Shown piece by piece: positions 7,167 through 53,140 of a stretch of DNA of 64,000 bases. The position numbers and the translations under genes were made by a program. Source of the stretch: a virus (taxonomy: Duplodnaviria > Caudoviricetes). The notes beneath the pieces are model-generated. The model was given only the letters and a program-made list of their open reading frames with translations, was not told where the DNA came from and made no database searches. The number at the start of each line of letters is the position of its first letter. Position 1 is the first letter of the stretch. The stretch lies in the IMG/VR virus record IMGVR_UViG_3300042483_000388; one strand, written 5' to 3'.

Positions 7167-7243
7167 ATATGTCAAATAACTTGTTATATTATAAATACAA
7201 ATATAATACAAAGATTTATATTATTCAATATATTTATAAAAAT

Positions 7244-19413: not shown

Positions 19414-21195
19414 ATGGAAAATAACAATCAAAATTTTACAGTTTGGCAAAGGTTATCCAAAACTTTTGGACCTGATTCAACATTGGGGATGAGTCAACCT
19501 GACTATAAGTTAGATAAGAAAGAAATACTAAAAACAACAGATAAGGCCGAATACGAAAGGGCTAAATTACAGAATCAACAATCACTATACCTAAGTTCAA
19601 ATTGGGCTAAGGTCGAGAACAATCTTTATACTCAGGCGGTTTATTACGAACCAACAAGATTAGCAGCATTTTATGATTTTGAAAGTATGGAATACACTCC
19701 AGAAATCTCCGCAGCATTAGATATATATGCCGAAGAATCGACAACACCAAATCAAGATGGGTATGTTCTTCAGGTATATTCAGAATCAAAAAGAATTAAA
19801 AGTATTTTAGTTGATTTATTCGTAAATAATTTAGACGTAAACACCAACTTACCAATGTGGATTAGGAATATGTGTAAGTATGGTGATAATTTCGTTTATT
19901 TAAAATTAGATCATGAAAAGGGTGTCACTGGTTGTCTGCAACTACCTAACATTGAAATTGAAAGATTAGAGAAGGGTATGGAATCTAGATCATTTAATAT
20001 AACACCAGATGAAAATCAAAAAGCGTTAAGATTTACATGGAAAGTTAAAAATGTTGATTTTAACACTTGGGAGGTCGCTCACTTCAGATTATTGGGTGAT
20101 GATAGAAAACTTCCTTATGGGACATCTATGTTGGAGAAAGCAAGACGTATTTGGAAACAATTGGTTTTGGCCGAAGATGCGATGTTAATTTATAGAACAT
20201 CAAGAGCTCCTGAAAGACGAGTATTCAAAGTTTTTGTTGGTAATATGGATGATAAAGATGTTGAGGCCTACGTTCAAAGGGTTGCAAACAAATTTAAAAG
20301 GGATCAAGTGGTTGATAATAAAACGGGTAATGTAGATCTAAGATTCAACCAAATGGCGGTTGATCAAGATTATTTTATACCTGTACGTGACACCGCACAA
20401 GCAAGTCCCATCGACACCTTACCTGGAGCAACAAATTTATCTGAAATCGCCGATATTGAATATATTCAAAAGAAATTGGTAACGGCATTAAGAATACCTA
20501 AAGCGTATTTAGGTTTTGAGGAGGCTCTTGGAGATGGTAAAAACTTATCATTGTTGGATATTCGTTTCGCAAGAACAATTAACAGGATTCAAAAATCAGT
20601 AATTGCTGAATTAAATAAAATCGCAATTATTCACCTATTCTTAATGGGTTTTGAGGATGAATTACAAAACTTTACCTTAGGACTTACTAATCCATCTAAA
20701 CAAGCCGATTTGTTAATGATTGATGTTTGGAAAGAAAAAGTGACATTATATAAGGATATGGTTGCGGAAATTCCAAAATCAATTCAAGCTACTTCGGCAA
20801 CATGGGCTAAGAAACATATATTCGGATTCTCTGATGAGGAAATTAAGTTGGAGTTACAACAAGTTAGAATGGAAAGAGCGGTTGCTGCCGAACTTGATAA
20901 TACGGCAACAATTATTACTAAAACTGGATTATTTGATACTGTGGATAGGTTATATAAACCACCAGCATCCGGATCAACAGAATCTCCAGCACCTGAAGCT
21001 GGAGGGGCACCACCACCTGATGCGGGAGGTCCTCCACCTCCACCAGACGCAGGTCCACCAATTCCGGAATCAACTCTTAATAGTAAATTAAATATTCTTA
21101 CCGAAAATTCTGAGGACGAATTTTTGGATTTCTATAAAATGAATAACTCTTTAGGTTCAATTGAAAAAGAATTATCTAAATTATTACGAGATTAA
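19414..21195 (+). CDS. portal protein (T4 gp20-like)
   Basis: YR..RAPERRVF, EDAMLIYR, DYFIP, IDTLPGATNLSEIADIEY. Confidence 0.95.
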   Translation: MENNNQNFTVWQRLSKTFGPDSTLGMSQPDYKLDKKEILKTTDKAEYERAKLQNQQSLYLSSNWAKVENNLYTQAVYYEPTRLAAFYDFESMEYTPEISAALDIYAEESTTPNQDGYVLQVYSESKRIKSILVDLFVNNLDVNTNLPMWIRNMCKYGDNFVYLKLDHEKGVTGCLQLPNIEIERLEKGMESRSFNITPDENQKALRFTWKVKNVDFNTWEVAHFRLLGDDRKLPYGTSMLEKARRIWKQLVLAEDAMLIYRTSRAPERRVFKVFVGNMDDKDVEAYVQRVANKFKRDQVVDNKTGNVDLRFNQMAVDQDYFIPVRDTAQASPIDTLPGATNLSEIADIEYIQKKLVTALRIPKAYLGFEEALGDGKNLSLLDIRFARTINRIQKSVIAELNKIAIIHLFLMGFEDELQNFTLGLTNPSKQADLLMIDVWKEKVTLYKDMVAEIPKSIQATSATWAKKHIFGFSDEEIKLELQQVRMERAVAAELDNTATIITKTGLFDTVDRLYKPPASGSTESPAPEAGGAPPPDAGGPPPPPDAGPPIPESTLNSKLNILTENSEDEFLDFYKMNNSLGSIEKELSKLLRD

Positions 21196-25511: not shown

Positions 25512-27398
25512 ATGGGAGCATTATTAGAATCAGGTCTTGTTGGTAACATAGGGTTAAAACACCTTAAAGTTATCAAAGAAGACACTATTAACAAATGGAA
25601 CAAATTAGGGTTCCTTGATGGACTTAAAGGTCATCTAAAAGAAAATATGGCTCAATTATATGAGAATCAAGCGTCACATTTGATTAACGAAGCAACTGGA
25701 GAAGGTTCTAACGGAGCATTTGAAACTGTTGTTTTCCCAATCGTAAGACGTGTATTCTCTAAATTGTTAGCTAACGACATCGTATCAGTACAAGCAATGA
25801 ACTTACCTATCGGTAAATTGTTCTACTTCGTACCTAAAATCCAAGGATATCAAAATGAATATCAAGGACCAGATGCGACAGGTGGTATTCATTATCCTCC
25901 AGTTGGAGCACCAAATGGACCTGCTAATGGAGCTGGATATGAGCCAACAGGACCATACGCTTACAAGAAAAACCTTTATGATTTATTCTACGAAGGAAAT
26001 GAGGCAGGAATGGATCCACAAGGATTATTTGACTACTCTAAAGGTAAGTGGACCGCAGTTACTGCAACTACAACAATCCAAGCATGGGCTGGTTCAGCAC
26101 TTGTTAACGCAACTATCAACGGAGGTACTCCTGCAGGTGGAACACAAATTCCAGCAGGTAACATAAGAAAAGTTCTTATGAAAATGTGTGGTTTCGCAAA
26201 TTCAGGAGCTGGTAAATTAATCGGACCTGATGGTAACGAAATGGATAGTGAGGCATTTTTGTCTGACTTGAGAATATTCGCATCAACAGGATTATCCGCA
26301 TCTACTACACCTTGTGACGTTCTTAAAAACAGTGCAGGACAATACATTCCTTTATTATTTAGATGTGTTACTCAAATATACGGTAAAGGTCTTGTTAAAT
26401 ATGGTGGTCAACAATCAACAACATTTGCAAACACTAGTACTCAACCTAACGACGCAGGTAATGGTGGTTCTTACTACGATATCTGTGACTCAGATGGTTG
26501 TATCTATTTAGAAGTAGATTTATCTTGTCCAGTATGTGCTGATTGTGACTCAACATCTTTAGATGGTTACACAGGTACTACAATATACTCAGGTGGATCT
26601 GGAACTTCATTTACTGCATTCTTTAGACGATATGCTAACTTAGAATTTGAAGACGAAATTGGTGAGGTTTCTTTTGATTTAGAATCAGTAACTGTTTCTG
26701 TAACTGAAAGAAAACTAAGAGCACAATGGTCTCCTGAATTAGCTCAAGACGTTGCGGCATTCCACAACATCGACGCTGAAGCTGAATTAACAGCATTGTT
26801 ATCTGAACAAGTAGCAGCTGAAATCGACCGTGAGATCCTTCGTGACTTACGTAAAGGTGCGGCATGGAACTTACGTTGGGATTACAACGGATGGAGAAGA
26901 ATTTCTCAAACAACATCTTACACTCAGAAAGACTGGAACCAAACATTAATTACAGCAATCAATCAGTTGTCTGCACAAATTCACAAATCAACTTTGAGAG
27001 GTGGTGCTAACTGGATCGTTGTTTCTTCTGAGGTTTCTGCTATCTTTGACGATTTAGAATACTTCCACGTATCTAACGCGGCTCCTGAGCAAGATCAGTA
27101 TAACATGGGTATTGAAAGAGTTGGTACTCTTGCAGGACGTTACCAAGTTTATCGTGATCCTTACTTCCCAGCAAACCAAGTTTTGATTGGACACAAAGGA
27201 ACATCATTGTTAGACACAGGTTACATCTACGCACCGTATGTACCATTACAATTAACACCTACAATGTACAATCCGTTCAACTTTACTCCGATCAAAGGAA
27301 TAATGACGAGATACGCGAAAAAAATGGTAAATAATCGCTTTTACGGGAGAATTACCGTAGATGGTGTTCGTACATTCGATTTAAGAGAATTGAGATAA
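25512..27398 (+). CDS. major capsid protein (T4 gp23-like)
   Basis: VSVQAMNLPIGKLFY, RKLRAQWSPELAQD, AEIDREI, YAPYVPL, GIMTRYA. Confidence 0.96.
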   Translation: MGALLESGLVGNIGLKHLKVIKEDTINKWNKLGFLDGLKGHLKENMAQLYENQASHLINEATGEGSNGAFETVVFPIVRRVFSKLLANDIVSVQAMNLPIGKLFYFVPKIQGYQNEYQGPDATGGIHYPPVGAPNGPANGAGYEPTGPYAYKKNLYDLFYEGNEAGMDPQGLFDYSKGKWTAVTATTTIQAWAGSALVNATINGGTPAGGTQIPAGNIRKVLMKMCGFANSGAGKLIGPDGNEMDSEAFLSDLRIFASTGLSASTTPCDVLKNSAGQYIPLLFRCVTQIYGKGLVKYGGQQSTTFANTSTQPNDAGNGGSYYDICDSDGCIYLEVDLSCPVCADCDSTSLDGYTGTTIYSGGSGTSFTAFFRRYANLEFEDEIGEVSFDLESVTVSVTERKLRAQWSPELAQDVAAFHNIDAEAELTALLSEQVAAEIDREILRDLRKGAAWNLRWDYNGWRRISQTTSYTQKDWNQTLITAINQLSAQIHKSTLRGGANWIVVSSEVSAIFDDLEYFHVSNAAPEQDQYNMGIERVGTLAGRYQVYRDPYFPANQVLIGHKGTSLLDTGYIYAPYVPLQLTPTMYNPFNFTPIKGIMTRYAKKMVNNRFYGRITVDGVRTFDLRELR

Positions 27399-40555: not shown

Positions 40556-40999
40556 TTAATTAATAAATCTTTTTTTACTCTCACCATCATAGATTTTTTT
40601 TCTAAGGTTTGTTGTTGAGTAATTATGGTCACGTTTATTGTATATAATTCTAATCCCCCTCTTTTGACAAATACTTTTTCCCGTGTAGTCAATGTCTTTA
40701 TAATCCTCACCAATTATTCGGACATCTAAATCCAATGAACTAAAAAGTTCTTCTAACTCATCTTCAGTATTGTAGGGGATTATCTTATCAACATATTTAA
40801 CCGCATCCAATTGCAAGTATCTTTCTACAAGGGATTGGATTGGTTTATTTTTATCTTTTCTATCTATTGTAGGATCGTTCTGTAATGCACATATTAAATA
40901 ATCACAATGTTTTTTACATTCTTCTAACATAATGATATGTCCTGTATGTAGGAGATCAAAAGTACTACATGTTATTCCTACCGTTTTATTTTTTTCCAT
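40556..40999 (-). CDS. cytidylyltransferase (TagD/RfaE-like)
   Basis: TFDLLHTGH (HxGH); GEDY; RDHNYSTT. Confidence 0.88.
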   Translation of the reverse strand: MEKNKTVGITCSTFDLLHTGHIIMLEECKKHCDYLICALQNDPTIDRKDKNKPIQSLVERYLQLDAVKYVDKIIPYNTEDELEELFSSLDLDVRIIGEDYKDIDYTGKSICQKRGIRIIYNKRDHNYSTTNLRKKIYDGESKKRFIN

Positions 41000-41966
41000 A
41001 ATATTCTAACCAATAATTTATCATTTCATCTAACATTGTTTCAAATGTATATTTTGGTTTCCATTTTAACTCATTTCTAAGTTTAGATGAATCACCTTTT
41101 AAATCATAAAGTTCCTCAGGTCTAAAATGTTTTTCATTGACTTCAATATAATTAGTAAAATCTAAACCTATTTTTGAAAATGTGTAGTCACATAAATCTT
41201 TTACTGAGTGAGATATACCGGTAGAGCACACATAATCATCTGGTTTGTCAGTTTGTAACATCATCCACATTGCTTCAACATAATCTTTAGCGTGACCCCA
41301 ATCTCTTGTAGCGTCTAAATTGCCTAAATATAACTTATCTTGTAACCCTAATTTAATTCTAACCGCAGCTTTTACGACTTTATTGGTTACGAAATTTGTC
41401 CCTCTTCTTGGTGATTCGTGGTTGAATAATATTCCATTCCATATTTTCATACCATAAGAGTTTCTATAATTTCTACAAATGTTGTATGAAAATACTTTAG
41501 CACAACCATATGGTGAGACCGGATTTAATTGTGTTGTTTCTCTTTGGAACCCGTCATCATCAATAGTATTACCAAACATTTCTGATGATGAAGCTTGATA
41601 AATTTTTATTTTTGTGTCAACTAATTTACATGCTTCTAAAACGTTTAATGTTCCTAAACCAGTTACATTTGCCGTATATATTGGTTGGTCAAAAGATATT
41701 CTAACGTGAGATTGTGCTGCCAAATTATAAACCTCTTGAGGTTTAATTTCACTAATTACTCTAATTATTGATGATAAGTCGGTTAGATCTGCGTAATGTA
41801 AATTTAATTTATCGAAAACACTATCTAATCTTGATGTTTGATTTTCAGATACCGAATTTCTTTTTAAAGTTCCATGAACTTCATACCCTTTTTCTAATAA
41901 TAACTCAGCAAGATATGATCCGTCTTGACCATTTATCCCTGTAATGAGTGCCACTTTTTTATCCAT
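40986..41966 (-). CDS. gmd: GDP-mannose 4,6-dehydratase
   Basis: GINGQDGSYL, LAAQSHV, ASSSEMFG, YGCAK, FNHESPRRG. Confidence 0.95.
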   Translation of the reverse strand: MDKKVALITGINGQDGSYLAELLLEKGYEVHGTLKRNSVSENQTSRLDSVFDKLNLHYADLTDLSSIIRVISEIKPQEVYNLAAQSHVRISFDQPIYTANVTGLGTLNVLEACKLVDTKIKIYQASSSEMFGNTIDDDGFQRETTQLNPVSPYGCAKVFSYNICRNYRNSYGMKIWNGILFNHESPRRGTNFVTNKVVKAAVRIKLGLQDKLYLGNLDATRDWGHAKDYVEAMWMMLQTDKPDDYVCSTGISHSVKDLCDYTFSKIGLDFTNYIEVNEKHFRPEELYDLKGDSSKLRNELKWKPKYTFETMLDEMINYWLEYYGKK

Positions 41967-43107
41967 TTACGATATTTGTAATTATTTTAATTTGATCTTC
42001 AGTTAAATCTTGGTGGTTTGGTATATAAAACCCAAATTCATTAATTTTTTCACAATTTGGTAAACTAACTTTACCAAATCTTTCATACCACATTGGTTTT
42101 TTTGACATATCACCAGCAATCAAAGGTCTAACTTCAATTCCTTCTGACGTTAATCTATCAACTATTTCTTTTTTATTTTTGGACACAATAGGTAGTGCAA
42201 AATTTGAAACAAAATCACCCTCTCTCTCAAATAAATTTAATTCGTTAATCTTAATTAAATTATTATATTGTTTAAAATTAATGTTCCTTAATTTTGAATA
42301 GTTGTCTAATTTGTCCAATGATCTAATACCAATAAATGCCTGTAAATCAGTTGATCTTAAATTAAGTCCTGGTACGTAAAAATTATATAAAGAATCAAAA
42401 TCACTAACTGAGTATTTTTCCCTTAATTCTTTTTGTTTCCATTCAGGTAGATCCCTATCCCAACCGTGACTCCTCATCATTAGTAATAGGTGGTAAAAAT
42501 CCTCATCATTTGTGTTAATAAATCCACCCTCAATTGTACTTAAGTGATGACCAAAATACATTGAGAAAAATGATGCGAACCCAAATGAACCTAAATATTT
42601 TCCTTGGAATTTAGATCCCATACTTTCACAAACGTCCTCAAATAATATAACTTCGTATTTTTCACAAAGTGATAAAACTTTATCCATCTCAGGAACTAAA
42701 CCTAATGGGGAAACAAGTATCATAGATGAAGGATTATGGATTTTAAATAAATCTTCAAGGTAATTTAAGTCACACGATAAATCGGTTAAGTTACAATCAC
42801 ACATTATTGGTTCCATACCTAATAAAATTGGTGAACTAACGTCAGTTGCCCAACTCAAACTTGGGATAATAATCTTTTTATTTTTTATCTTTTTACTCTC
42901 GAGTAATGCCGCCAATGCCAATAGAATTGCTGACGATCCTGAGTTAACATAAACAGAATATTTTGTCCCTATTTTTTTTGCCCATTTAGATTCTAATTCC
43001 CAAGTCAAATCACCCTTAGTTAATCTTGGTATTTCTGATTGACTTAACCACTCAATCAAAGAATTAATATCATCTTTGTTTATGGTGTCACTTACTAATT
43101 TTATCAT
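41959..43107 (-). CDS. PLP-dependent GDP-4-keto-6-deoxymannose 3-dehydratase (ColD-like; DegT fold)
   Basis: EDVCES; SMYFGHHLSTIEGG has His instead of the Schiff-base Lys; RSHGWDRDLP. Confidence 0.75.
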   Translation of the reverse strand: MIKLVSDTINKDDINSLIEWLSQSEIPRLTKGDLTWELESKWAKKIGTKYSVYVNSGSSAILLALAALLESKKIKNKKIIIPSLSWATDVSSPILLGMEPIMCDCNLTDLSCDLNYLEDLFKIHNPSSMILVSPLGLVPEMDKVLSLCEKYEVILFEDVCESMGSKFQGKYLGSFGFASFFSMYFGHHLSTIEGGFINTNDEDFYHLLLMMRSHGWDRDLPEWKQKELREKYSVSDFDSLYNFYVPGLNLRSTDLQAFIGIRSLDKLDNYSKLRNINFKQYNNLIKINELNLFEREGDFVSNFALPIVSKNKKEIVDRLTSEGIEVRPLIAGDMSKKPMWYERFGKVSLPNCEKINEFGFYIPNHQDLTEDQIKIITNIVNG

Positions 43108-43178
43108 GATCTTTTTTTTATTAATCGTAATTGATGATTGATTTAAGTAAATTAAAGATAAATCTATTTTTTATTGTC

Positions 43179-43952
43179 TTAAACGTCTTCCCATGTGTGT
43201 AATGATATTGACACTGAATCATTATTTTTATAGTCATCTAAAATTTTAATAATTTCTTGTTCGGTATAATTTAAAGGATATGTCTTACCCATTAATGTTG
43301 TTTGTACGTTTTTTTCTATATGATACCCTAAATCATGTTTGAGGCACCAATTTGCATAACAATCTTGTTCAGTAGGGTAACTACTTAAATTAATGTTTTC
43401 ACATGCAACTTTAAAAAAATGATTAAAATTATCGTAATTTCCTAACATTTTTTTGGTTAGTCTTTTATCGTACATCATAAAATCAATTATAAATGAGTCA
43501 TCACCAACTCTTTCTAAATCAAACATTTTTTTACTAAAATTAAAATAAGGTTGATGATAATGAGAATGTTGGGGTGACATAAAAAATATTGGTTTATTAT
43601 CAGTTGTAAACAAATTAATAGGTTTTACAAAAAAGTTATCCGACTGTATGTCTAAATAATAGTTTTGTTCGGTTACATCTTGAAATAAGGCGATAAACGT
43701 TGCGAAACACCAATTTTTTCTATACGGGATATTATTTCTGTCACACCCTGGAAATACATCATCATCTTTAACTACCACAATTTTGTCTTCATAATCAGTG
43801 CCCTCAGGTTTATACCCGTCAGGATTTATTAAGAAGATTTTACTTGGTTGCGGATTTAAAAATTTTATCGAATTTATTACTAATTTTAATTTTACGTAAT
43901 CTTTCGTTCCTGATTTTATGGTAACATCATACTTATTTGATTCTTTCATCAA
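43179..43952 (-). CDS. putative GT-A fold glycosyltransferase
   Basis: KDYVKLKLVINSI; YLDIQSDNFFVKP; PTEQDCY. Confidence 0.55.
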   Translation of the reverse strand: MMKESNKYDVTIKSGTKDYVKLKLVINSIKFLNPQPSKIFLINPDGYKPEGTDYEDKIVVVKDDDVFPGCDRNNIPYRKNWCFATFIALFQDVTEQNYYLDIQSDNFFVKPINLFTTDNKPIFFMSPQHSHYHQPYFNFSKKMFDLERVGDDSFIIDFMMYDKRLTKKMLGNYDNFNHFFKVACENINLSSYPTEQDCYANWCLKHDLGYHIEKNVQTTLMGKTYPLNYTEQEIIKILDDYKNNDSVSISLHTWEDV

Positions 43953-44871
43953 TTAAACTTATTTGTTTTTTATATTCTAACAATCCTTCAAATGTTTCTG
44001 GGGAAATATAGTTGATAATACTCATAGGGTTCTCCTTTAAATCTTTTAATAGATTTAAAGTGTGTACATTACCTAATATCTCGTCCTTAAAATCTTTTGT
44101 TTCATCATGAACATGTCTATCGTGTCTTACATCGACTTCAGTGTATACCATTTTAAATCCACAAGATTGGTTATAAAAAGATGCCCAAATATCTGTCATT
44201 CTTCCTGTTCTAGCCATCATAAAATATTCTTTGGATGCTTTTCTTGATAAAATAGTATTTTGTGAATTAAATGGTGAAAATGTGTTTGTTGAGATTGGGA
44301 AACCAATTTTTAAAAAGTCACATTTTGGTAAATGTTCCATCCTACAAATTGCATCAATATCTGGTTCATTATTCCAAAGACCTGATTGTACATCGGGTAT
44401 AACCACTTTTTTATTCATTACATATTCATTTCTATTTTTTAATAATTGTAATGGATATCCTCTATGCCACAATTGAGGGTAATTTGTATGGTAAAGAGGG
44501 TCAAAACATAATCTATTAGTTTCATAATGAAAAACTTCAACTTCCTTACCTATTAAAATATTTTTACCCCAATTTTCTAAAGGGACATTATCATCATCAA
44601 CAATAGCGATTAAATCGGCACCTCTTTCATATGCTTCTAACACACCTAAAGTTTTTCTTTCGGCGCAATTCCACCCAATAAGGTTACTTAAAGTTGGCCA
44701 TTTGGTACTTTGATATTCAATTGTTAAATAATCACAATTTATCTCATCATATAATTCTTTTGGTGTTTTAAGATCTCCAACAACAATAAAATCCCACCCT
44801 TCCATGTTTGAATACTTAATTGTTGCCTCAGTTGGTGCGCTTATAGTCGTTGTTACAATTATTTTTTTCAT
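43933..44871 (-). CDS. STELLO/RGP-like GT-A protein
   Basis: IVTTTI, VVGDLKTP, IVDDDN, RGYP, PDIDAI, SPFNSQNT, DIWASF. Confidence 0.7.
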   Translation of the reverse strand: MKKIIVTTTISAPTEATIKYSNMEGWDFIVVGDLKTPKELYDEINCDYLTIEYQSTKWPTLSNLIGWNCAERKTLGVLEAYERGADLIAIVDDDNVPLENWGKNILIGKEVEVFHYETNRLCFDPLYHTNYPQLWHRGYPLQLLKNRNEYVMNKKVVIPDVQSGLWNNEPDIDAICRMEHLPKCDFLKIGFPISTNTFSPFNSQNTILSRKASKEYFMMARTGRMTDIWASFYNQSCGFKMVYTEVDVRHDRHVHDETKDFKDEILGNVHTLNLLKDLKENPMSIINYISPETFEGLLEYKKQISLIDERIK

Positions 44872-45782
44872 AGTTCGTTTTTATAAGTATTATAATGACA
44901 TTTAATTCCTTCTTTTAAAGTTGTAAATTTATAATCAGGTATTAGTTTTCTAAACTTAGTAATATCCAAATCTTTCCTATATTGACCATTTGGTTTTGAT
45001 TTATCGTATCTTATCTCAAGTTTTGAGTTTGTTGCTTCTAAAGCAATTTCAGCAATTTGGTTAATTGTAATATTTTCCTCAGTTGCTAAATTAAATGATT
45101 CGGTTATATCTCTGTCAATAATTATTTTTATTATATTTGCAATATCATTTGCGTGTATAAATTGTCTTAGGGATTCTCCATTACCATATAAAGTTATATG
45201 ATCTTCATTATTTTTATTTGCTTCAAAAATTTTTTTAATAAGTGCTGTCACAAAATGACTTCTATTTTCGTCGTCTTTGTCTGATTCACCATATAAATTA
45301 CAAGGCGATATGTAACTATAATTGGTTTCATATTGTTCATTACAGGTGTCAATTTGAACCGCAAGAGATCTTTTTGCCATACCATATGAAAAGTTAGTTT
45401 TAGTTGGTGGTCCATTATGTAAAACATCCTCTTTCATAGGGTATTCATCCACTGTGTCAGGAAATATACAACTACTTAATACACCTAAAAATCTTTTTAC
45501 ACGATTAAGTCTTGCGTACTTAACCATTAATGTATTCATTAAAATATTGTCCTCAAAGTACTCTAAAGGGTGGTTAATATTATCAATTATTCCGCCTACC
45601 CTTGCGGCGAGATGTACCACATAGTCAGGTTCTAATTCTTTATATAATCGTATTACTTCCGATTCTAAAATTAAGTTATAATCTTTTGATGAAAGAAAAG
45701 TCGCATTTGGCATAATTTTTTTTAAGTGATTACCGACCAAACCAGAACCACCTGTTACTACTATTTTCATATTTTTATCCAA
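44868..45782 (-). CDS. fcl: GDP-L-fucose/GDP-L-colitose synthase (Fcl/ColC family)
   Basis: GGSGLVG, HLAARVGG, SSCIFP, YGMAKR, NLYG. Confidence 0.85.
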   Translation of the reverse strand: MDKNMKIVVTGGSGLVGNHLKKIMPNATFLSSKDYNLILESEVIRLYKELEPDYVVHLAARVGGIIDNINHPLEYFEDNILMNTLMVKYARLNRVKRFLGVLSSCIFPDTVDEYPMKEDVLHNGPPTKTNFSYGMAKRSLAVQIDTCNEQYETNYSYISPCNLYGESDKDDENRSHFVTALIKKIFEANKNNEDHITLYGNGESLRQFIHANDIANIIKIIIDRDITESFNLATEENITINQIAEIALEATNSKLEIRYDKSKPNGQYRKDLDITKFRKLIPDYKFTTLKEGIKCHYNTYKNEL

Positions 45783-46537
45783 TTATCACAATAAATATCA
45801 TTAGTGGGAACGTCCAATAATTTCCCAAACCAAATAGATGGTGATATTATTTTTTTATTTATGTTATTATTTAACCAAGCTCCCCACCAACTAAATGTTG
45901 AGTTTGATATTATATTATGATCACATAACGACATCATATATAAGTCATTAATATTACCTTCATTTTCAATATAATTGATGTTATTAAAATTTAAATTGTT
46001 TTTACACCAATTTATATCATCAGAAAAAATTGCAACATTTATATTGTTATTGTTTATTATGTCATAACCATCTTTATAATAATTAATTGTTTGTGTCGGG
46101 TGGTGATCTGGTAGGTTTAAATAATCACCTCTTCTAACATGAATACATAATGTCGGTTCATTTAAAAATATATATTTTTTAAAAAAATATTCTTTTAAAT
46201 TTTCAGGTATACTTAATTCTTCTCTAATTATTTTTTTGTTTTCCTTAAAATATTTTTCAGACTGCCAATAACCATCTAAATATGAGTTATCGTTAATTTC
46301 TTTGTATGTAAAATTGTCAATAACTCTGTTTAGTTGTGTATTATTTGTTGAGGAGTTAATTATTATATTTTTGAATTTATCTAATTCCATTCCTCGACTA
46401 TTCACATCAAAACTACTTTTACCAATATGTGTTAAATCAAAATAATATTCGGTATTGTATTTAATTGAAAGATTTCTAGTGACTGCCCATTGAAATAATT
46501 GATTACCCAACCCTCCTTGTAGTTTTGTTGTTATCAT
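45767..46537 (-). CDS. alpha-1,2-fucosyl(colitosyl)transferase, GT11
   Basis: GGLGNQLFQ, GYWQSEKYF, HVRRGDY, NSTFSWWGAWL. Confidence 0.92.
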   Translation of the reverse strand: MITTKLQGGLGNQLFQWAVTRNLSIKYNTEYYFDLTHIGKSSFDVNSRGMELDKFKNIIINSSTNNTQLNRVIDNFTYKEINDNSYLDGYWQSEKYFKENKKIIREELSIPENLKEYFFKKYIFLNEPTLCIHVRRGDYLNLPDHHPTQTINYYKDGYDIINNNNINVAIFSDDINWCKNNLNFNNINYIENEGNINDLYMMSLCDHNIISNSTFSWWGAWLNNNINKKIISPSIWFGKLLDVPTNDIYCDNWIKI

Positions 46538-47184
46538 AATATTTTAGTTAAATCGTATTGTTTAGTGTTAAAATTACTATTACTATGTACTCTATGTAAC
46601 AATAAATTTTCTGGTATATTAAAAAATGTTTTATTATTTCTCATTAACCTTAACCAAAAATCATAATCCTCAATCCCGTCCAAATCCTCTCTCCACCCAT
46701 CAATTTCTAAAGAGTCTGATTTTTTAAAAATCGCACTAGTATTAGCAATTTGATTTACACCCAAAAATGAATTTTTCTTAATATCTTCATCTTGTGTTGA
46801 TAATAAAGGGGATCCTATGATAATATCGTTACTATCTATATAGTTAATAAAAGTTCCTATAACATCATAATTATTAATATAATTTAATTGTTTTTCTAAT
46901 TTAGTGGTAACCCAAATATCATCATCATCTTGTATGGCAATCCAACCATATTTTGATTCTATTAATAGTTTGTTTAATGTTTTTGATTTACCCTTTTCAT
47001 CACCGTAATCAAATATTCTAATTCTACCATCGTTAAATTTATTTACAATTTCTTTTGAGTTGTCTGTTGTACCATTAAACCCAATTAATAATTCAAAATC
47101 TTTAAAAGTCTGATTTAATATGGACTCAATTGATTTTTTAATAAATTTTTCACCGTTATATGTTGCTAGTAATATTGTTACCAT
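46534..47184 (-). CDS. glycosyltransferase, GT2 family
   Basis: LATYNGE, IQDDDD, EDYDFWLR. Confidence 0.88.
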   Translation of the reverse strand: MVTILLATYNGEKFIKKSIESILNQTFKDFELLIGFNGTTDNSKEIVNKFNDGRIRIFDYGDEKGKSKTLNKLLIESKYGWIAIQDDDDIWVTTKLEKQLNYINNYDVIGTFINYIDSNDIIIGSPLLSTQDEDIKKNSFLGVNQIANTSAIFKKSDSLEIDGWREDLDGIEDYDFWLRLMRNNKTFFNIPENLLLHRVHSNSNFNTKQYDLTKIL

Positions 47185-47187
47185 AAC

Positions 47188-47886
47188 TTAATTTCTAAAA
47201 TATTCAAACCCACCATATTTTCGTTTATCTAAAAAAAATATTTTACTATGATCGTGTTTATGGTTTTCATCTGCGGCATAACCTAAAGGTAAAATTAATG
47301 TTGGTGTGTTATTTAAAAAATACCTATTTAAATGAGATTCATCGTGCCATATTGCAATAATACCATTTTTTAGGTCTTTATTGATGTTAGATTCAATCGT
47401 TCTTGATAGGTTTAAAAATTCGGAACTGATTCCACCAAAAAATCCACCACAAAAATATTGATTACTTTCCCCATTTGTAATGTATGCGGTGGAATTTGGG
47501 TTTCTTTCGGGTGTACCTTCACCATTCCCCAAATAAGGGTGTAACGTACCAATAATATTAGATAATATATCTTCAGGGTTTATCTGACCAACAAACAAAC
47601 TATCAGCGTCAATATAAAATGAATAATCATAATTAGAAATAATTTCCTCACATTCATTGAAAAATTTAAACCGGTGTAAGGTTGAGCTAGGCCAAGGGTT
47701 ATGATCCACTTTATGGATTATGTGATCACCCTCAATTTTAATGTCTTCTTGGTCCGTATGAATTAAATAAGTTTTACTAACACTTGGTAAAAAAAAATTT
47801 TCAATGGACGGTATTAACTTATCCAAAAAGAAAATGTATTTATTTGTTGCAATGATATTAACTACTATTTTTAAATTATTTTTCAT
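47188..47886 (-). CDS. GT6 family (ABO-like alpha-1,3-GalNAc/Gal transferase)
   Basis: IATNKY, WPSSTLHRF, YIDAD, YFCGGFFGG, WHDESHLNRY. Confidence 0.9.
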   Translation of the reverse strand: MKNNLKIVVNIIATNKYIFFLDKLIPSIENFFLPSVSKTYLIHTDQEDIKIEGDHIIHKVDHNPWPSSTLHRFKFFNECEEIISNYDYSFYIDADSLFVGQINPEDILSNIIGTLHPYLGNGEGTPERNPNSTAYITNGESNQYFCGGFFGGISSEFLNLSRTIESNINKDLKNGIIAIWHDESHLNRYFLNNTPTLILPLGYAADENHKHDHSKIFFLDKRKYGGFEYFRN

Positions 47887-47910
47887 TATCAGTGTATGTT
47901 ATATTATTTA

Positions 47911-48540
47911 TTACTTTATCAACCATTTATAATCTGTGACCTTATTTTCTATATCGCTAAAACTAACTCTTTGGGTTGCAATTACAGGGTAAAAAGAATA
48001 AACATTTAATGATTTTTGTAATTCAGAATATATCACATCTAATGCGTTATCGTATTTTTTTAATCTTTCTAATATAACATTAAATGATTTTTTATTTATT
48101 GCAACACAGTGAGTGCTAAATGTGTTATGTAATTTGCAAACTTTTTCATTTACTATTAATGGAGGTTTTATTCCCATATGTGTATTATGGTTCCCACCAA
48201 AATATAACATATCCCAATCTTTTGGTAACATATTAAAATATTCGTCCATGTCCCCAACTTGTTTTTCAAACTCAACGTCGTCCTCTAATATTAATATTGA
48301 GTTATAACCATTTTGAATTGATTCCTCTAATATTTGTATGTTTGTTAAAACTAATGCCAACCTTGATGGTGTCATAAAACCTGATGAAGTTTGGGTTAAC
48401 TCTTTTCCGTCTACAGCTTTAAATCTATTAACGTTTGTTAGTTTGTTTTTTTCAAATTCAACAACACATTCACTCCACCTATCTGGTCTACGATCTAAAT
48501 TTACGCAATATGTTTTATCAAAAAATTCTGTTATTTTCAT
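47911..48540 (-). CDS. GT25 family (LgtB/Lex2-like beta-galactosyltransferase)
   Basis: VNLDRRPDRW, FKAVDG, ILEDDV, WDMLYFG. Confidence 0.85.
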   Translation of the reverse strand: MKITEFFDKTYCVNLDRRPDRWSECVVEFEKNKLTNVNRFKAVDGKELTQTSSGFMTPSRLALVLTNIQILEESIQNGYNSILILEDDVEFEKQVGDMDEYFNMLPKDWDMLYFGGNHNTHMGIKPPLIVNEKVCKLHNTFSTHCVAINKKSFNVILERLKKYDNALDVIYSELQKSLNVYSFYPVIATQRVSFSDIENKVTDYKWLIK

Positions 48541-49100
48541 TAGTGTCTTACGTTATAATATACCTCAGGAGTAATAACCCAATTATCTGTTAATTTTTTT
48601 AACTTCATTAAAAAATCAAAGTCTTCTCCATCTCGATTATTATCAAATAATAAGTTATCAAATTTATTTTTGTAACAAAAAGATATTCCAACACGACCAA
48701 AAATAATGTCTTTAATTTTTTGTGGTGGTAACACCAAACCATTTTGATATTTCATTCTCCAAACAACAAAATCATTTTCTAAATATTTTTCACTTAGTGT
48801 TGAGATGTAATTTACGTCTATTGTGTCATCATCATCTAAAAATCCAATCCATTCTGTTTTAACCATTTTAATTCCTACGTTTCTAACCAAACCTGATTGA
48901 CCATTTGCCGGGCCAACCAAACCTGTTTTTGGTATCTCTAAAGTTTTTATTCTTTCGTCTTCAAATCCTTTCCCAACAACGCCATCATATAATATAATTG
49001 CGTTCCAATTTGGATTTGTTTGGTTTAATAACGAATCTACGGTTCTTGTGATTGTTGATCTGTTAAGTGAGGGGATAATAAATGTAATAAAAGGTTCCAT
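48540..49100 (-). CDS. glycosyltransferase, GT2 family
   Basis: IIPSLNR, RNVGI, FLDDDD, GEDFDF. Confidence 0.85.
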   Translation of the reverse strand: MEPFITFIIPSLNRSTITRTVDSLLNQTNPNWNAIILYDGVVGKGFEDERIKTLEIPKTGLVGPANGQSGLVRNVGIKMVKTEWIGFLDDDDTIDVNYISTLSEKYLENDFVVWRMKYQNGLVLPPQKIKDIIFGRVGISFCYKNKFDNLLFDNNRDGEDFDFLMKLKKLTDNWVITPEVYYNVRH

Positions 49101-49101
49101 A

Positions 49102-50601
49102 CTAATTAGTAATTACTGTGTATTTTTTAAATTTTTCAAAATTTTCTTTAATAAATGGGTAAACATGTTCATTAAAATCTTGCATCATTTCTAGCTTATT
49201 GTTCTCAACTTCTCTTGTTTGAGATTCGTGGTGATAAGCAACACATTCTCCATTACAATAATTATAATACCCATTTTTTATAAGTTGTAAACCTAAAATC
49301 GCATCCTCATAACAATGTCTAAAGGACTCGTTAAAGCCACCCATAGTTTCAAAAACTTTTTTTCTTACCATCATTAACGCTGCGGTGTTTCCGCCAACCT
49401 CATCAATACCCGTATTAAATTTATAATATGTTTCCCTATTTAAATGGTCTAATGTATATGCCTTATGTTTTTGTCTCAGAATGATTGAAATACCATCGTG
49501 TTGTACTGTGTTGTTTGAAAAATGTAATCGACACCCAACGGTACCAACCCTATCTTTTGTTTTGAATGTTTTTAACATTCCTGAAATTACATCATTTAAT
49601 AACTCAATATCGTTATTACAGAATAATAAAAATTCATAATTGTTTGGTAAATTTTTTACGACATCATTATTTATTTTGGCATAATTGTAATAATCATATT
49701 CAATTAGAGTTATAGATTTAATATTTTCTTTAATCCAATTTTTTTCCTCATCTGTTGATCCTGTATCCGCAATAAAAATATCATATAGGTTTGAATCACA
49801 ATATTTGTGAATTGAGTCGACACATTCTTTTAACATCTCCACCTTACCTTTCGTTGGTATGATTACCGCAACTTTACCAACATTTTTTATTGGTTTGTAT
49901 TTTACTTGTGGAACATAAACTTCGGATGGTTTAAGATCCAATGGTAATACGTAACCCCACTTCTCAAGGAACTTTACCTTACTATCATAAAATTCTTTAT
50001 TTGGTTGACCAACAGATTCGTGAGTTATTTCAAATGATGAGGTTATACCTAATTTAACGTTATCCAAATAATTTGGCAAACAGAATAGGTGGTCGTAAAA
50101 GTGGAACTTACCAATCGTCTCATCAAAAGTATGTTTGATTTTTGTTTTATCAAATGCGATAAATAACCCATCAATTGTAACAACGGGAATTAAGAATGGT
50201 AATTTTGGTGAGTATTTGTTTATCCATTTTTTTTGACCTTCCGGATGGTGATAAACTTGACCCACCATTGTGTAGTGCATCCTATCCCAATAAACTCCAG
50301 TGTCAGGAAAATAACAAGATCCGGCTTTTCCAATTATACCGAATTCGGGGTTATTAGAAAAATCGTTTAACAATTTTTTGCCCCAATTTTTTTCAAGTTT
50401 TATATCATTATGACAACAAACAACAATATCATAAATTGATTCTGTAATCCCTGAATTATAAACACTAGATAAAGAATATTGGTTATGATTAACGTATTCT
50501 AAAATCTGAACATCTTTAACGCCAACGTTTTGTAACAAATGTTGTTTAAATTTGTTATTGTATTCTTGGTCCTTATGTGTTGAGTAAACTATTGTAATCA
50601 T
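49102..50601 (-). CDS. two-domain glycosyltransferase (GT2-like + GT2)
   Basis: N-domain CCHND/IDG/HFYD; C-domain IIPTK, FCNND, YEDA. Confidence 0.85.
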   Translation of the reverse strand: MITIVYSTHKDQEYNNKFKQHLLQNVGVKDVQILEYVNHNQYSLSSVYNSGITESIYDIVVCCHNDIKLEKNWGKKLLNDFSNNPEFGIIGKAGSCYFPDTGVYWDRMHYTMVGQVYHHPEGQKKWINKYSPKLPFLIPVVTIDGLFIAFDKTKIKHTFDETIGKFHFYDHLFCLPNYLDNVKLGITSSFEITHESVGQPNKEFYDSKVKFLEKWGYVLPLDLKPSEVYVPQVKYKPIKNVGKVAVIIPTKGKVEMLKECVDSIHKYCDSNLYDIFIADTGSTDEEKNWIKENIKSITLIEYDYYNYAKINNDVVKNLPNNYEFLLFCNNDIELLNDVISGMLKTFKTKDRVGTVGCRLHFSNNTVQHDGISIILRQKHKAYTLDHLNRETYYKFNTGIDEVGGNTAALMMVRKKVFETMGGFNESFRHCYEDAILGLQLIKNGYYNYCNGECVAYHHESQTREVENNKLEMMQDFNEHVYPFIKENFEKFKKYTVITN

Positions 50602-51925: not shown

Positions 51926-53140
51926 TTAATTTATTAAGGATATGTAAAATTCCGCCCTATTTTTTGTCACAATATTAAGGTCATATTTGTCTTTTACCGT
52001 TTCATATAATCTCTCACCAAGATCGGTAATCATATTTGGATTTTCAACCAACTTTTTAATGTTTTTTGCCCAATCACTATGATTGTTAGTTTCGTTAACC
52101 AACAATGCGTTTCCATCGGTAAACTGACCTTTATCCAATGCGTGTTTCAAGTCAATGGTATAAGGTCCAACATTCGACGCAATTAACGCTTTCTTATAAA
52201 ATCCTGCTTCAATAACCTTCAATTGTGATTTCATTCTATTGAATATATGGTTTTTAATTGGTGCCAATGAAATGTCAAAGTTAGAATAGTTTCTAGCGTA
52301 TTGGTCAACAGGTCTCGTCCAAACTCTAACATAGTTTTCGTTTTGGATTGCCGGATAGTCCCCCTCTTCAAATTTGTCTAAGTAAATTTTATATTCTGGT
52401 GAGATAATTTTATAATCATTGGTAAAAATTTTCTCATACATTACCCAAACCGTTTCATTAGGTTTAATTGGTCTTTGTTTTTTTTCTCCAGTATCTTTAT
52501 TTAATTCGGTAATAACCCCACGAATATCAAATCCACAAATATAATATTGTAACTTATCTTGTATTTGCCCAAGTTTGTTGGTCATTCCATCTAATAACTT
52601 AAGATCGTGTAAGTGGGATGAACCACCCAACCAACCAACTCGTATCTTATCCGATTTTGGTGTGGGTTGATTAAACTGAGGTTCTGTTGGGTCAATTGCG
52701 TTAGGTAAAACAATAACATTCTTATTGATTTTTCTAATTTCGTTGGCAAATAAGTCAGTTGTTGTTGTAACATATGAACACTCCCTTAAATTGTTTACAA
52801 TTTTTGTATTCATATTTTGTTGTCTAATCAATTCATGAATAGGGTGTTCCTTTGTGGGAAGCCAATAGTCATCAATGTCACCAATAACGATAATACCCAT
52901 AGACTTTAACCTTTTTATAAGTTCAGGACATTCATCAATATTCCCAAAACTTCTATGGAAATGAACTATTTGGTATTTTTTCCAATAATTTATGTCATTA
53001 ATTTTTGGTTGGTAATCAATATCAACGTGAAAATCATTTGGATATAAATTTTGTAGTTTAACGTGGGGGTCTACAGATCTGAACTTTCCTACTCCCGACG
53101 TATCTGAGGGGAGACACAATACTTTAATTTTTTCTTTCAT
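51926..53140 (-). CDS. glycosyltransferase, GT-B (GT4-like)
   Basis: DIDDYW, VLPNAID, GWLGGSSH, KSQLKVIEAG. Confidence 0.85.
   Translation of the reverse strand: MKEKIKVLCLPSDTSGVGKFRSVDPHVKLQNLYPNDFHVDIDYQPKINDINYWKKYQIVHFHRSFGNIDECPELIKRLKSMGIIVIGDIDDYWLPTKEHPIHELIRQQNMNTKIVNNLRECSYVTTTTDLFANEIRKINKNVIVLPNAIDPTEPQFNQPTPKSDKIRVGWLGGSSHLHDLKLLDGMTNKLGQIQDKLQYYICGFDIRGVITELNKDTGEKKQRPIKPNETVWVMYEKIFTNDYKIISPEYKIYLDKFEEGDYPAIQNENYVRVWTRPVDQYARNYSNFDISLAPIKNHIFNRMKSQLKVIEAGFYKKALIASNVGPYTIDLKHALDKGQFTDGNALLVNETNNHSDWAKNIKKLVENPNMITDLGERLYETVKDKYDLNIVTKNRAEFYISLIN

What the first reader, a model, noticed from the sequence alone, without database searches (positions are those of the whole stretch)
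40986..45782. Phage-encoded GDP-colitose-type pathway (Gmd + His-type ColD + Fcl/ColC)
Seen: the DegT-fold protein (41959-43107) has SMYFGHHLSTIEGG, with His where aminotransferases carry the PLP-binding Lys. It lacks the Cys cluster of the Fe-S E1 dehydrase (SHGWDRDLP). Gmd is adjacent and an Fcl-like reductase is three genes away. Known: Gmd, then ColD (His-type 3-dehydratase), then ColC gives GDP-L-colitose, a rare 3,6-dideoxysugar of O-antigens. Inference: the phage may make colitose rather than, or as well as, fucose.
Basis: partly seen in the sequence, partly recalled or inferred. Interest (0 to 1): 0.78.

Follow-up and report, generated by a model that had tools for sequence, protein, structure and literature searches.

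The report
Phage-encoded GDP-colitose sugar pathway
A large T4-like phage from lake water carries the three enzymes that bacteria use to make the rare O-antigen sugar colitose, next to a row of sugar-transferring enzymes, so during infection it probably builds its own colitose-bearing glycan; the chemistry is known, but I found no paper that reports it in a phage.

Summary
ORF 41959-43107 (-) is a DegT-fold protein with His187 at the position of the Schiff-base lysine. This His aligns with His188 of E. coli O55 ColD.

Evidence that it is a ColD-type enzyme:
- ColD is its best solved relative by sequence (E 5e-56) and by fold (TM 0.87-0.90).
- It lacks the insertion carrying three of the four [2Fe-2S] cysteines of E1/RfbH.
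- It scores far below the RfbH model cut-off.
- In an ML tree it falls, with ColD, in the non-E1 clade (support 99/93).

The neighbouring Gmd is a true GDP-mannose 4,6-dehydratase, not a GDP-heptose one. The Fcl-family enzyme keeps its full catalytic set. In related viral contigs Fcl-like, ColD-like and Gmd are usually contiguous. In this window two glycosyltransferase-like genes were inserted between ColD-like and Fcl-like. A GT11 gene overlaps the Fcl-like start.

Best reading (about 0.7): GDP-mannose to GDP-L-colitose, handed to the adjacent transferases. Still open: whether GDP-fucose is made as well, and what the acceptor is.

A cultured cyanophage (ACG-2014f) carries an analogous cassette under generic annotation. 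This scan has also noted the motif in at least 33 genomes. I class it as a new member of a known kind, of moderate interest.

The parts
40986..41966 (-). Gmd, GDP-mannose 4,6-dehydratase (326 aa): step 1, makes GDP-4-keto-6-deoxy-D-mannose
   Evidence: PF16363 at 410.7 bits. TIGR01472 at 413.7 bits against a cut-off of 415. Best PDB hits are true GMDs at 299-349 bits, while GDP-heptose 4,6-dehydratase 7us5 scores only 124 bits. It is 46% identical to both E. coli O55 Gmd copies. The GxxGxxG motif and S127/E129/Y153/K157 align with E. coli T133/E135/Y157/K161.
41959..43107 (-). ColD-type PMP/PLP-dependent GDP-4-keto-6-deoxy-D-mannose 3-dehydratase (382 aa, P0001): step 2
   Evidence: His187 aligns with ColD His188. 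ColD 2gms scores E 5e-56, E1 3bcx 5e-29 and Per 3bn1 8.5e-26. The AF2 model has pLDDT 97 and its top 12 Foldseek hits are all ColD chains. There is no Fe-S insertion. It lies in the non-E1 clade with 99/93 support. It keeps the ColD-side residues W86, E161, H214, R251, E325 and P328.
43179..43952 (-). DUF6492-like ORF, probable glycosyltransferase; inserted between the ColD-like and Fcl-like genes in this lineage
   Evidence: No Pfam or PHROG hit. The atlas feature search finds DUF6492 clusters, mostly viral, at 0.97-0.99. It is absent at this position in most relatives.
43933..44871 (-). STELLO/RGP (GT75)-like ORF, probable glycosyltransferase; also inserted
   Evidence: No Pfam or PHROG hit. 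The atlas feature search finds viral clusters carrying PF03385/PF03214 at 0.97-0.99.
44868..45770 (-). Fcl/ColC-family NADPH epimerase-reductase (300 aa from ATG 45770; the ORF extends to a TTG at 45782): step 3, inferred GDP-L-colitose synthase
   Evidence: PF01370 hit. NF047922 Fcl at 190.8 bits against a cut-off of 500. Best PDB hit is human GDP-fucose synthase at E 9e-53. It is 33% identical to E. coli O55 ColC and 27% to E. coli Fcl. S103/C105/Y133/K137/H176 align with E. coli Fcl S107/C109/Y136/K140/H179. Every row of its phage clade other than the window's own comes from a gene adjacent to a ColD-like gene.
45767..46537 (-). GT11 glycosyltransferase (256 aa), candidate alpha-1,2-colitosyl/fucosyl transferase; its stop overlaps the Fcl-like start (ATGA)
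   Evidence: PF01531 at E 9e-28 and phrog_2644. It is 30% identical to E. coli O55 colitosyltransferase WbgN. A GT11 gene lies within 150 bp of the ColD homologue in 11 of 79 bacterial loci and within 6 kb in 22 of 79.
46534..50601 (-). Run of further glycosyltransferase genes in the same strand block (GT2, GT6, GT25, GT2, double GT2): probable users of the product's glycan
   Evidence: Pfam hits. The same order is seen in five independent metagenome contigs.

Best explanation
The block encodes a self-contained GDP-L-colitose branch that draws on the host's GDP-mannose.

Step 1: Gmd oxidises and dehydrates GDP-mannose to GDP-4-keto-6-deoxy-D-mannose.

Step 2: the ColD-type enzyme, in its PMP form, makes a ketimine at C4. 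His187 abstracts the C4' proton and the 3-OH leaves. Hydrolysis then releases GDP-4-keto-3,6-dideoxy-D-mannose plus ammonia. PMP is regenerated from L-glutamate, so no Fe-S cluster or E3 reductase partner is needed.

Step 3: the Fcl-family enzyme epimerises C5 and reduces C4 with NAD(P)H, giving GDP-L-colitose.

The translationally coupled GT11, probably with the neighbouring GT2/GT6/GT25 enzymes, then places the sugar on a glycan made during infection.

Shown here: the family and catalytic make-up of each enzyme, the ColD rather than E1 placement, and the conserved gene linkage. Inferred: the actual substrates and product, whether some GDP-fucose is made by the same reductase, and the acceptor (virion protein or host surface).
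For: ColD assignment:
- The best solved relatives are the four E. coli ColD sequences (E 5e-56 to 1e-54), against E1 at 5e-29 and perosamine synthase at 8.5e-26.
- The AF2 model has pLDDT 97, and its top 12 Foldseek PDB hits are all ColD chains at TM 0.87-0.90.
- His187 aligns with ColD His188 and is invariant in the family. The Lys-type references have Lys there.
- Three of the four E1 Fe-S cysteines lie in an E1-only insertion that is missing from both the window protein and ColD.
- The RfbH equivalog model NF011936 gives 167.7 bits against a cut-off of 423. True E1s score 668-761 bits (one truncated copy 533) and E. coli ColD 262 bits.
- In the IQ-TREE analysis of 105 rows, the His-type clade has 100/100 support. 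It splits into an E1 clade (100/97) and a non-E1 clade (99/93) that holds E. coli O55 ColD and the window protein.
- Residues that separate the ColD side from E1 (ColD W88, E162, H215, R250, E329, P332) are all kept in the window protein. E1 has F, D, gap, K, G and L at these positions.

Partner enzymes:
- The Gmd is a true GMD: 299-349 bits to solved GMDs, against 124 bits to GDP-heptose 4,6-dehydratase.
- The Fcl-like enzyme keeps the Ser/Tyr/Lys triad and the Cys/His pair.

Linkage:
- Of 43 phage-lineage homologues, 38 have an Fcl-like gene within 150 bp and 39 have Gmd within 6 kb.
- Of 79 bacterial and archaeal homologues, 45 have an Fcl-like gene within 150 bp, 29 have Gmd within 6 kb and 22 have a GT11 within 6 kb.
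- E. coli O55 has the same colC-then-colD order and a GT11 colitosyltransferase in its cluster.

Literature:
- ColD needs only PLP and glutamate, whereas E1 needs Fe-S and E3 (PMC8987622).
- The GT11 enzymes WbgN and FUT2 transfer both Col and Fuc, so donor supply decides which sugar is used (PMC11987014).
Against: - There is no biochemical or glycan-composition data.
- The protein is only 32% identical to E. coli ColD. It sits in a different subclade of the non-E1 clade.
- ColC is not a separable clade. E. coli Fcl nests among ColD-adjacent reductases, and the window's reductase is nearer to human GDP-fucose synthase (182 bits) than to E. coli ColC (149 bits). The final stereochemistry is therefore inferred.
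- The 64 kb window holds only one Fcl-family gene, so GDP-fucose may be a co-product.
- No ManB or ManC was found in the window, so GDP-mannose must come from the host.
- Close ColD relatives in C. jejuni act on a GDP-heptose (PMC10440746), so the family does not fix the substrate on its own.
Confidence: 0.72

Rival explanations
1. The first two steps are the same (Gmd, then ColD-type 3-deoxygenation), but the reductase gives a different 3,6-dideoxyhexose stereoisomer. Alternatively the 4-keto-3,6-dideoxy intermediate is diverted to another product, so the end sugar is not L-colitose.
For: ColD-adjacent reductases are polyphyletic, and the window's belongs to a phage-specific clade with no characterised member. 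It scores only 190.8 bits against the 500-bit Fcl equivalog cut-off. Some relatives (L009-L012, L019, L027, L033, L035) carry a quite different SDR at the same place, which suggests the last step varies.
Against: The enzyme keeps the Cys/His epimerisation pair and the Ser/Tyr/Lys triad of Fcl and E. coli ColC. Its best relatives are bifunctional GDP-fucose synthases. On a 3-deoxy substrate the same chemistry gives colitose. No other tailoring enzyme (a Lys-type DegT or a separate epimerase) is in the window.
Confidence: 0.12
2. The module makes only GDP-L-fucose (Gmd plus Fcl). The His-type DegT protein is inactive or serves another pathway.
For: Gmd plus an Fcl-family enzyme is enough for GDP-fucose. 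GT11 and GT6 are classical fucose-related families.
Against: All cofactor and catalytic positions of the ColD side are conserved across 43 phage-lineage sequences. The gene is wedged between Fcl-like and Gmd in most relatives. The same three-gene linkage recurs in bacteria and in a second phage lineage.
Confidence: 0.05
3. The pathway starts from a GDP-heptose and gives a 3,6-dideoxyheptose, as in C. jejuni HS:5/HS:11. The neighbouring nucleotidyltransferase would feed in the heptose.
For: C. jejuni heptose C3-dehydratases are 62-67% identical to E. coli ColD (PMC10440746). The 147-aa gene next to Gmd hits an rfaE-domain-II/heptose adenylyltransferase PHROG. An earlier follow-up in this scan reached this reading for another genome.
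Against: The window's 4,6-dehydratase scores 299-349 bits to true GMDs and 124 bits to the solved GDP-heptose 4,6-dehydratase. There is no cupin-type epimerase or HddC-type guanylyltransferase. The reductase is nearer to Fcl than to the C. jejuni heptose reductases. The small nucleotidyltransferase is closest to ethanolamine-P and glycerol-3-P cytidylyltransferases. It is found in only one of the 42 related loci, so it is not part of the conserved module.
Confidence: 0.04
4. It is an E1/RfbH-type CDP-4-keto-6-deoxyglucose 3-dehydrase (as JGI's automatic names say), or it works as a sugar aminotransferase.
For: JGI names the close homologues CDP-6-deoxy-D-xylo-4-hexulose-3-dehydrase. PHROG and GenBank call the family 'aminotransferase'.
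Against: There is no Fe-S cysteine insertion. The score is far below the RfbH cut-off. The protein lies outside the E1 clade. No CDP-glucose pathway gene was recognised in the block. His replaces the Lys that aminotransferases need.
Confidence: 0.03

Closest known systems
E. coli O55:H7 GDP-L-colitose pathway (Gmd, ColD/WbdK, ColC/WbdJ, GT11 colitosyltransferase WbgN)
   Same: The same three enzyme families are present. The His-for-Lys PMP enzyme lacks Fe-S. The gene order is colC then colD, and a GT11 lies in the cluster.
   Different: Identities are only 32% (ColD), 33% (ColC), 46% (Gmd) and 30% (GT11). Ser187 of ColD is Gly186 here. The genes lie in a T4-like phage operon next to phoH, with no manB/manC/gmm and no wzx/wzy. 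Two extra GT-like genes split the module.
Synechococcus phage ACG-2014f gp223-gp226 (NC_026927)
   Same: A cultured phage with a contiguous cassette: Gmd, Fcl-like, His-type ColD-like (FYFGHHMTTIEGG) and GT11.
   Different: Its ColD-like protein is 33% identical to the window's and sits in another subclade. Its Gmd and Fcl are much more E. coli-like (65% and 49%), so this is probably a separate acquisition. It is annotated only as epimerase, aminotransferase and glycosyltransferase.
E1 (RfbH/DdhC/AscC) CDP-4-keto-6-deoxy-D-glucose 3-dehydrase of the abequose/tyvelose/ascarylose pathways
   Same: The same fold, and the same His in place of Lys.
   Different: E1 has a [2Fe-2S] cluster in an insertion and needs the reductase E3. 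It acts on a CDP-sugar (PMC8987622). The window protein lacks the insertion and lies in the sister clade.
C. jejuni HS:5/HS:11 GDP-3,6-dideoxyheptose pathway
   Same: A ColD-type, glutamate-dependent C3-dehydratase acts after a GDP-sugar 4,6-dehydratase (PMC10440746).
   Different: That pathway uses a heptose-specific 4,6-dehydratase, a separate epimerase and a separate C4-reductase. Here the dehydratase is a true GMD and the last enzyme is a bifunctional Fcl type.
Chlorovirus PBCV-1 GMD/GMER (virus-encoded GDP-fucose synthesis; from my own knowledge)
   Same: A virus encodes its own GDP-mannose-derived deoxysugar pathway alongside its own glycosyltransferases.
   Different: PBCV-1 is a eukaryotic virus with no ColD step, and its products are fucose and rhamnose.

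Membership tests
ColD (GDP-4-keto-6-deoxy-D-mannose 3-dehydratase) | DegT/aspartate-aminotransferase type I fold | tested here: met
   PF01041 at E 4e-54. AF2 model with pLDDT 97 and TM 0.87-0.90 to ColD structures.
ColD (GDP-4-keto-6-deoxy-D-mannose 3-dehydratase) | His replaces the Schiff-base Lys (ColD His188) | tested here: met
   Window His187 aligns with His188. Per and ArnB have Lys in that column.
ColD (GDP-4-keto-6-deoxy-D-mannose 3-dehydratase) | No [2Fe-2S] binding motif (the feature that separates it from E1 and SpnQ) | tested here: met
   The columns of three of the four E1 cysteines are gaps in both the window protein and ColD.
ColD (GDP-4-keto-6-deoxy-D-mannose 3-dehydratase) | Groups with characterised ColD rather than E1 in a phylogeny | tested here: met
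   Non-E1 clade with 99/93 support in IQ-TREE on 105 rows. The window protein is in a different subclade from E. coli ColD.
ColD (GDP-4-keto-6-deoxy-D-mannose 3-dehydratase) | Encoded with Gmd and an Fcl-family ColC | tested here: met
   Overlaps Gmd. The Fcl-like gene is the third gene upstream in the window and adjacent in 38 of 43 relatives.
ColD (GDP-4-keto-6-deoxy-D-mannose 3-dehydratase) | Glutamate-dependent C3 deoxygenation of GDP-4-keto-6-deoxymannose | not testable with these tools
   Needs an enzyme assay.
E1 / RfbH (NCBIfam NF011936) | Score over the curated equivalog cut-off (423 bits) | tested here: not met
   167.7 bits. True members score 668-761 bits, one truncated copy 533.
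E1 / RfbH (NCBIfam NF011936) | C-X57-C-X1-C-X7-C iron-sulfur motif | tested here: not met
Sugar aminotransferases (Per, ArnB, PseC and others) | Catalytic Lys forming the internal aldimine | tested here: not met
   His187 occupies that position.
Gmd (TIGR01472) | Equivalog score, catalytic Ser/Thr-Glu-Tyr-Lys, and nearest solved relatives are GMDs | tested here: met
   413.7 bits against a cut-off of 415, so 1.3 bits short. PF16363 at 410.7 bits. S127/E129/Y153/K157 present. PDB GMDs score 299-349 bits.
GDP-L-fucose synthase Fcl (NF047922) / GDP-L-colitose synthase ColC | Ser-Tyr-Lys triad plus the Cys/His epimerisation pair | tested here: met
   S103, Y133, K137, C105 and H176 align with the E. 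coli Fcl and ColC residues. The roles of these residues are from my memory of the GMER literature.
GDP-L-fucose synthase Fcl (NF047922) / GDP-L-colitose synthase ColC | Fcl equivalog cut-off (500 bits), or a distinct ColC clade | tested here: inconclusive
   190.8 bits, below the Fcl cut-off. ColD-adjacent reductases are polyphyletic and include E. coli Fcl, so no ColC clade exists to test against.
C. jejuni GDP-3,6-dideoxyheptose pathway | GDP-heptose-specific 4,6-dehydratase partner | tested here: not met
   124 bits to 7us5, against 299-349 bits to GMDs.

The most novel reading that the evidence does not exclude
The phage uses colitose, a sugar so far known from bacterial O-antigens, to cap a glycan that it assembles itself in the cytoplasm on its own virion proteins. 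This would be a 3-deoxy analogue of the H/A-B blood-group motif, built by the GT25, GT11 and GT6 enzymes of the same operon. On this reading a bacterial 'serotype' sugar becomes part of a phage coat, and the host LPS is not the target.
Probability: 0.25. Interest if true: 0.75.

Novelty: new member of a known kind. Interest (0 to 1): 0.5.

Why it matters
Colitose is a 3,6-dideoxyhexose known as an immunodominant, serotype-defining sugar of a few Gram-negative O-antigens. I found no paper that reports a virus making it.

The module is a conserved feature of a widespread freshwater T4-like phage lineage. There are 42 IMG/VR loci, and the window stretch itself is present in at least 20 lake-water metagenome runs. 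An analogous cassette sits unrecognised in cultured Synechococcus phages. These points suggest that phages commonly make rare deoxysugars during infection.

It also corrects database names. JGI calls these proteins E1 dehydrase, and PHROGs and GenBank call them aminotransferase.

It supplies a compact, Fe-S-free three-enzyme set for making GDP-colitose.

Finally, it frames a testable question: what does a lytic phage glycosylate, its virion or the host surface?

Tried and rejected
- A megablast of the block against 50,697 phage records found nothing, so no close cultured relative is available.
- An alignment of 50 diverse homologues was too divergent to seed a genome scan. A smaller alignment worked.
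- No whole genome is held for the window. I therefore could not search the rest of the roughly 279 kb phage for manC, wzx/wzy or a second fcl.
- Cluster names were uninformative, being automatic KO names.
- The 430-aa representatives P0235 and P0236, which I suspected were E1, are still nearer to ColD. True E1 references had to be fetched with the RfbH model.
- Three ColD structure papers are not held. My statements that ColD Arg219, Glu329 and Arg331 contact the GDP rest on memory only. What I tested is that these residues are conserved in the window protein, and that Glu329 is Gly/Ala in E1.
- The promoter and terminator scan gave counts no higher than in shuffled sequence, so it is uninformative.
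- No RNA run holds the stretch, so expression is untested.
- Trying to separate ColC from Fcl by tree failed in principle.
- The heptose reading was considered and rejected on the identity of the dehydratase.

Full report
**What the window is.** The 64 kb window has about 30% G+C. It carries a T4-type large terminase (17409-19184), a gp20 portal (19414-21195) and a gp23 major capsid gene (25512-27398). The nearest cultured portal is 42% identical (Microcystis phage Mel-JY01, then Flavobacterium phages). Megablast of the block finds no phage record. The ColD-like protein is seen on 35 contigs, the longest 278,926 bp. The stretch is held by at least 20 lake-water metagenome runs from 2020 and 2024. 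Five independent assemblies show the same gene order. So this is a recurrent, uncultured freshwater T4-like phage.

**The observation.** ORF 41959-43107 (-) translates to a 382-aa DegT/DnrJ/EryC1 protein containing FFSMYFGHHLSTIEGG and RSHGWDRDLP. In the HMMER alignment to PDB 2gms, the window GHH lies on ColD S187-H188-H189. The engineered ColD entries H188K, H188N and S187N/H188K differ exactly there. In a 270-row alignment, window His187 shares a column with ColD His188 and with the Lys of E. coli O157 perosamine synthase and ArnB. The His is invariant in every His-type homologue examined.

**ColD or E1?** I fetched true references:
- E. coli O55:H7 ColD, ColC, WbgN, both Gmd copies and colanic-acid Fcl.
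- O157 Per.
- Ten RfbH/E1 equivalogs scoring 748-761 bits against NF011936.

Five tests agree.
1. Sequence to solved structures: ColD E 5e-56, E1 5e-29, Per 8.5e-26.
2. Fold: the AF2 model has pLDDT 97. Its top 12 Foldseek PDB hits are all ColD chains, and E1 first appears at rank 29.
3. Fe-S motif: the E1 rows show C195, C253, C255 and C263 (spacing X57, X1, X7). The last three lie in an insertion that is absent from the window protein, E. coli ColD, all 43 phage-lineage rows and 79 of the 81 bacterial rows counted there.
4. Curated model: 167.7 bits against the RfbH cut-off of 423.
5. Phylogeny (IQ-TREE, LG+G4, 105 rows, rooted on 13 Lys-type enzymes): the His-type clade has 100/100 support. 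It splits into E1 (100/97) and a non-E1 clade (99/93). The non-E1 clade holds E. coli O55 ColD and the window protein.

Positions that separate the two sides are ColD W88, E162, H215, R250, E329 and P332. E1 has F, D, gap, K, G and L there. The window protein has the ColD state at all of them: W86, E161, H214, R251, E325 and P328. From memory, Glu329, Arg331 and Arg219 contact the GDP in ColD. I could not retrieve the papers to confirm this.

**Which substrate?** ColD-family membership alone does not fix the sugar. C. jejuni C3-dehydratases that are 62-67% identical to E. coli ColD act on a GDP-6-deoxy-4-keto-heptose (PMC10440746). An earlier follow-up in this scan read another cassette that way. 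Here the partner decides:
- The window's 4,6-dehydratase scores 299-349 bits to solved GDP-mannose 4,6-dehydratases and only 124 bits to the solved GDP-heptose 4,6-dehydratase 7us5.
- It is 1.3 bits under the Gmd equivalog cut-off.
- It keeps the catalytic residues.
- There is no separate cupin epimerase.
- The last enzyme is nearer to bifunctional GDP-fucose synthases (182 bits to human GFUS) than to the C. jejuni heptose reductases (about 85 bits).

The 147-aa nucleotidyltransferase next to Gmd is named heptose adenylyltransferase by PHROGs. Its closest solved relatives are ethanolamine-phosphate and glycerol-3-phosphate cytidylyltransferases. It occurs in only one of the 42 related loci. 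I treat it as unrelated to this pathway.

**Gene linkage.** In 42 related IMG/VR loci the order Fcl-like, ColD-like, Gmd, PhoH is nearly constant. Of 43 ColD-like genes, 38 have the Fcl-like gene within 150 bp, 29 have Gmd within 150 bp and 39 have Gmd within 6 kb. The window differs only in having two GT-like ORFs inserted between ColD-like and Fcl-like: a DUF6492-like ORF and a STELLO/GT75-like ORF.

Among 79 bacterial and archaeal homologues, 45 have an Fcl-family gene within 150 bp, 29 have Gmd within 6 kb and 22 have a GT11 within 6 kb. In 11 of these the GT11 is directly adjacent. E. coli O55 has the same colC-then-colD order. In the window the genes are translationally coupled. Gmd and ColD-like overlap by 8 nt. 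Fcl-like overlaps the upstream GT11 stop as ATGA.

**The last step.** The Fcl-like enzyme has the Ser/Tyr/Lys triad and the Cys/His pair, aligned with E. coli Fcl and ColC. It is 33% identical to ColC and 27% to Fcl. A tree of 87 Fcl-family proteins shows that ColD-adjacent reductases are polyphyletic, and that E. coli Fcl itself nests among them. 'ColC' is therefore a role, not a clade. The window's enzyme sits in a phage-specific clade (100 SH-aLRT) whose other rows all come from genes next to a ColD-like gene. Only one Fcl-family gene, one Gmd and one DegT gene are in the 64 kb, and there is no ManB, ManC or Gmm. GDP-colitose is the expected product. Whether the same enzyme also reduces the ColD substrate to GDP-fucose is open.

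**Use of the sugar.** The GT11 (45767-46537) is 30% identical to the O55 colitosyltransferase WbgN. WbgN and human FUT2 both transfer Col and Fuc, so donor supply decides which sugar is added (PMC11987014). Upstream on the same strand lie GT2, GT6, GT25, GT2 and a double GT2. No ORF with many membrane spans (Wzx, Wzy or phosphoglycosyl-transferase type) is in the window. That fits assembly on a cytoplasmic acceptor, or use of host machinery. I cannot decide between virion and host-surface targets. First-stage notes on the neighbouring window describe Ser/Thr-rich fibre genes next to protein-glycosylating transferases. I did not check those.

**Is it known?** Full-text searches found nothing describing the pathway in a virus. 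'Colitose' with 'phage' gave 23 papers, none relevant. 'GDP-colitose' with 'virus' gave none. Adding cyanophage or AMG terms gave no paper that holds 'colitose'. The sequence itself is not new, however. Synechococcus phage ACG-2014f (54 Synechococcus phage records match) carries gp223-gp226. These are Gmd, Fcl-like, a His-type ColD-like protein (FYFGHHMTTIEGG) and GT11, annotated only as epimerase, aminotransferase and glycosyltransferase. Its ColD-like protein falls in a different subclade, so phages probably acquired the cassette more than once. PHROGs label the family 'aminotransferase', and JGI labels it as the CDP-sugar E1 enzyme. Both are wrong or imprecise by the tests above. This scan's first-stage readers have flagged the same motif 44 times in at least 33 genomes.

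**Verdict.** This is a known pathway and known enzyme families in a new kind of carrier, so I class it as a new member of a known kind. The likely product is GDP-L-colitose (0.72). The main residual doubts are the stereochemistry of the last step and co-production of fucose. Interest is moderate (0.5). The open and more interesting question is what the phage decorates.

Noticed in passing
window 46534-50601 (-) and 51926-53140 (-): A dense run of glycosyltransferase genes follows the deoxysugar genes on the same strand: GT2, GT6, GT25, GT2 and a double-domain GT2, then a GT1-like gene after dUTPase and an exonuclease. GT25 + GT11 + GT6 is the enzyme logic of H/A-B blood-group-like O-antigens.
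   Followed up: partly
window 40556-40999 (-): A small cytidylyltransferase-fold gene sits between PhoH and Gmd. PHROGs name it heptose adenylyltransferase, but its best solved relatives are ethanolamine-P and glycerol-3-P cytidylyltransferases. It is present in only one of the 42 related loci (L035). It may point to a phospho-alcohol decoration.
   Followed up: partly
L009-L012, L019, L027, L033, L035 (about 7000-8000): In these phage relatives the SDR next to the ColD-like gene belongs to a divergent, long-branched clade, about 31% identical to the window's Fcl-like enzyme. The last step, and so the sugar made, may differ between sister phages.
   Followed up: no
L013, L015, L022-L024, L026, L032, L042: Eight related phage loci also carry a Lys-type DegT aminotransferase in the same island. 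This suggests an amino-deoxysugar branch beside the ColD branch.
   Followed up: no
L146 5044-8957 (Synechococcus phage ACG-2014f, NC_026927 gp223-gp226): A cultured cyanophage carries a contiguous Gmd / Fcl-like / His-type ColD-like / GT11 cassette annotated only generically. Its ColD-like protein lies in a different subclade from the window's.
   Followed up: yes
L079-L081, L086, L091, L096, L100, L113 and others: 25 of the 79 bacterial or archaeal His-type homologues, many from Patescibacteria, have neither Gmd nor an Fcl-like gene within 6 kb. The partner pathway of that subclade is unclear.
   Followed up: no
window 11090-13147 (-): A full-length ClpB/Hsp104-type double AAA+ chaperone (685 aa) is encoded in the phage. 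This is unusual for T4-like phages.
   Followed up: no
whole window: No ORF with many membrane spans (Wzx, Wzy, WaaL or phosphoglycosyl-transferase type) and no ManB, ManC or Gmm was found in the 64 kb.
   Followed up: partly
representatives P0159-P0244 (metagenomic homologues): One subclade of the family has GHQ, GHP or GHA instead of GHH after the catalytic His. The second His of the HH pair is therefore not essential to the family.
   Followed up: no
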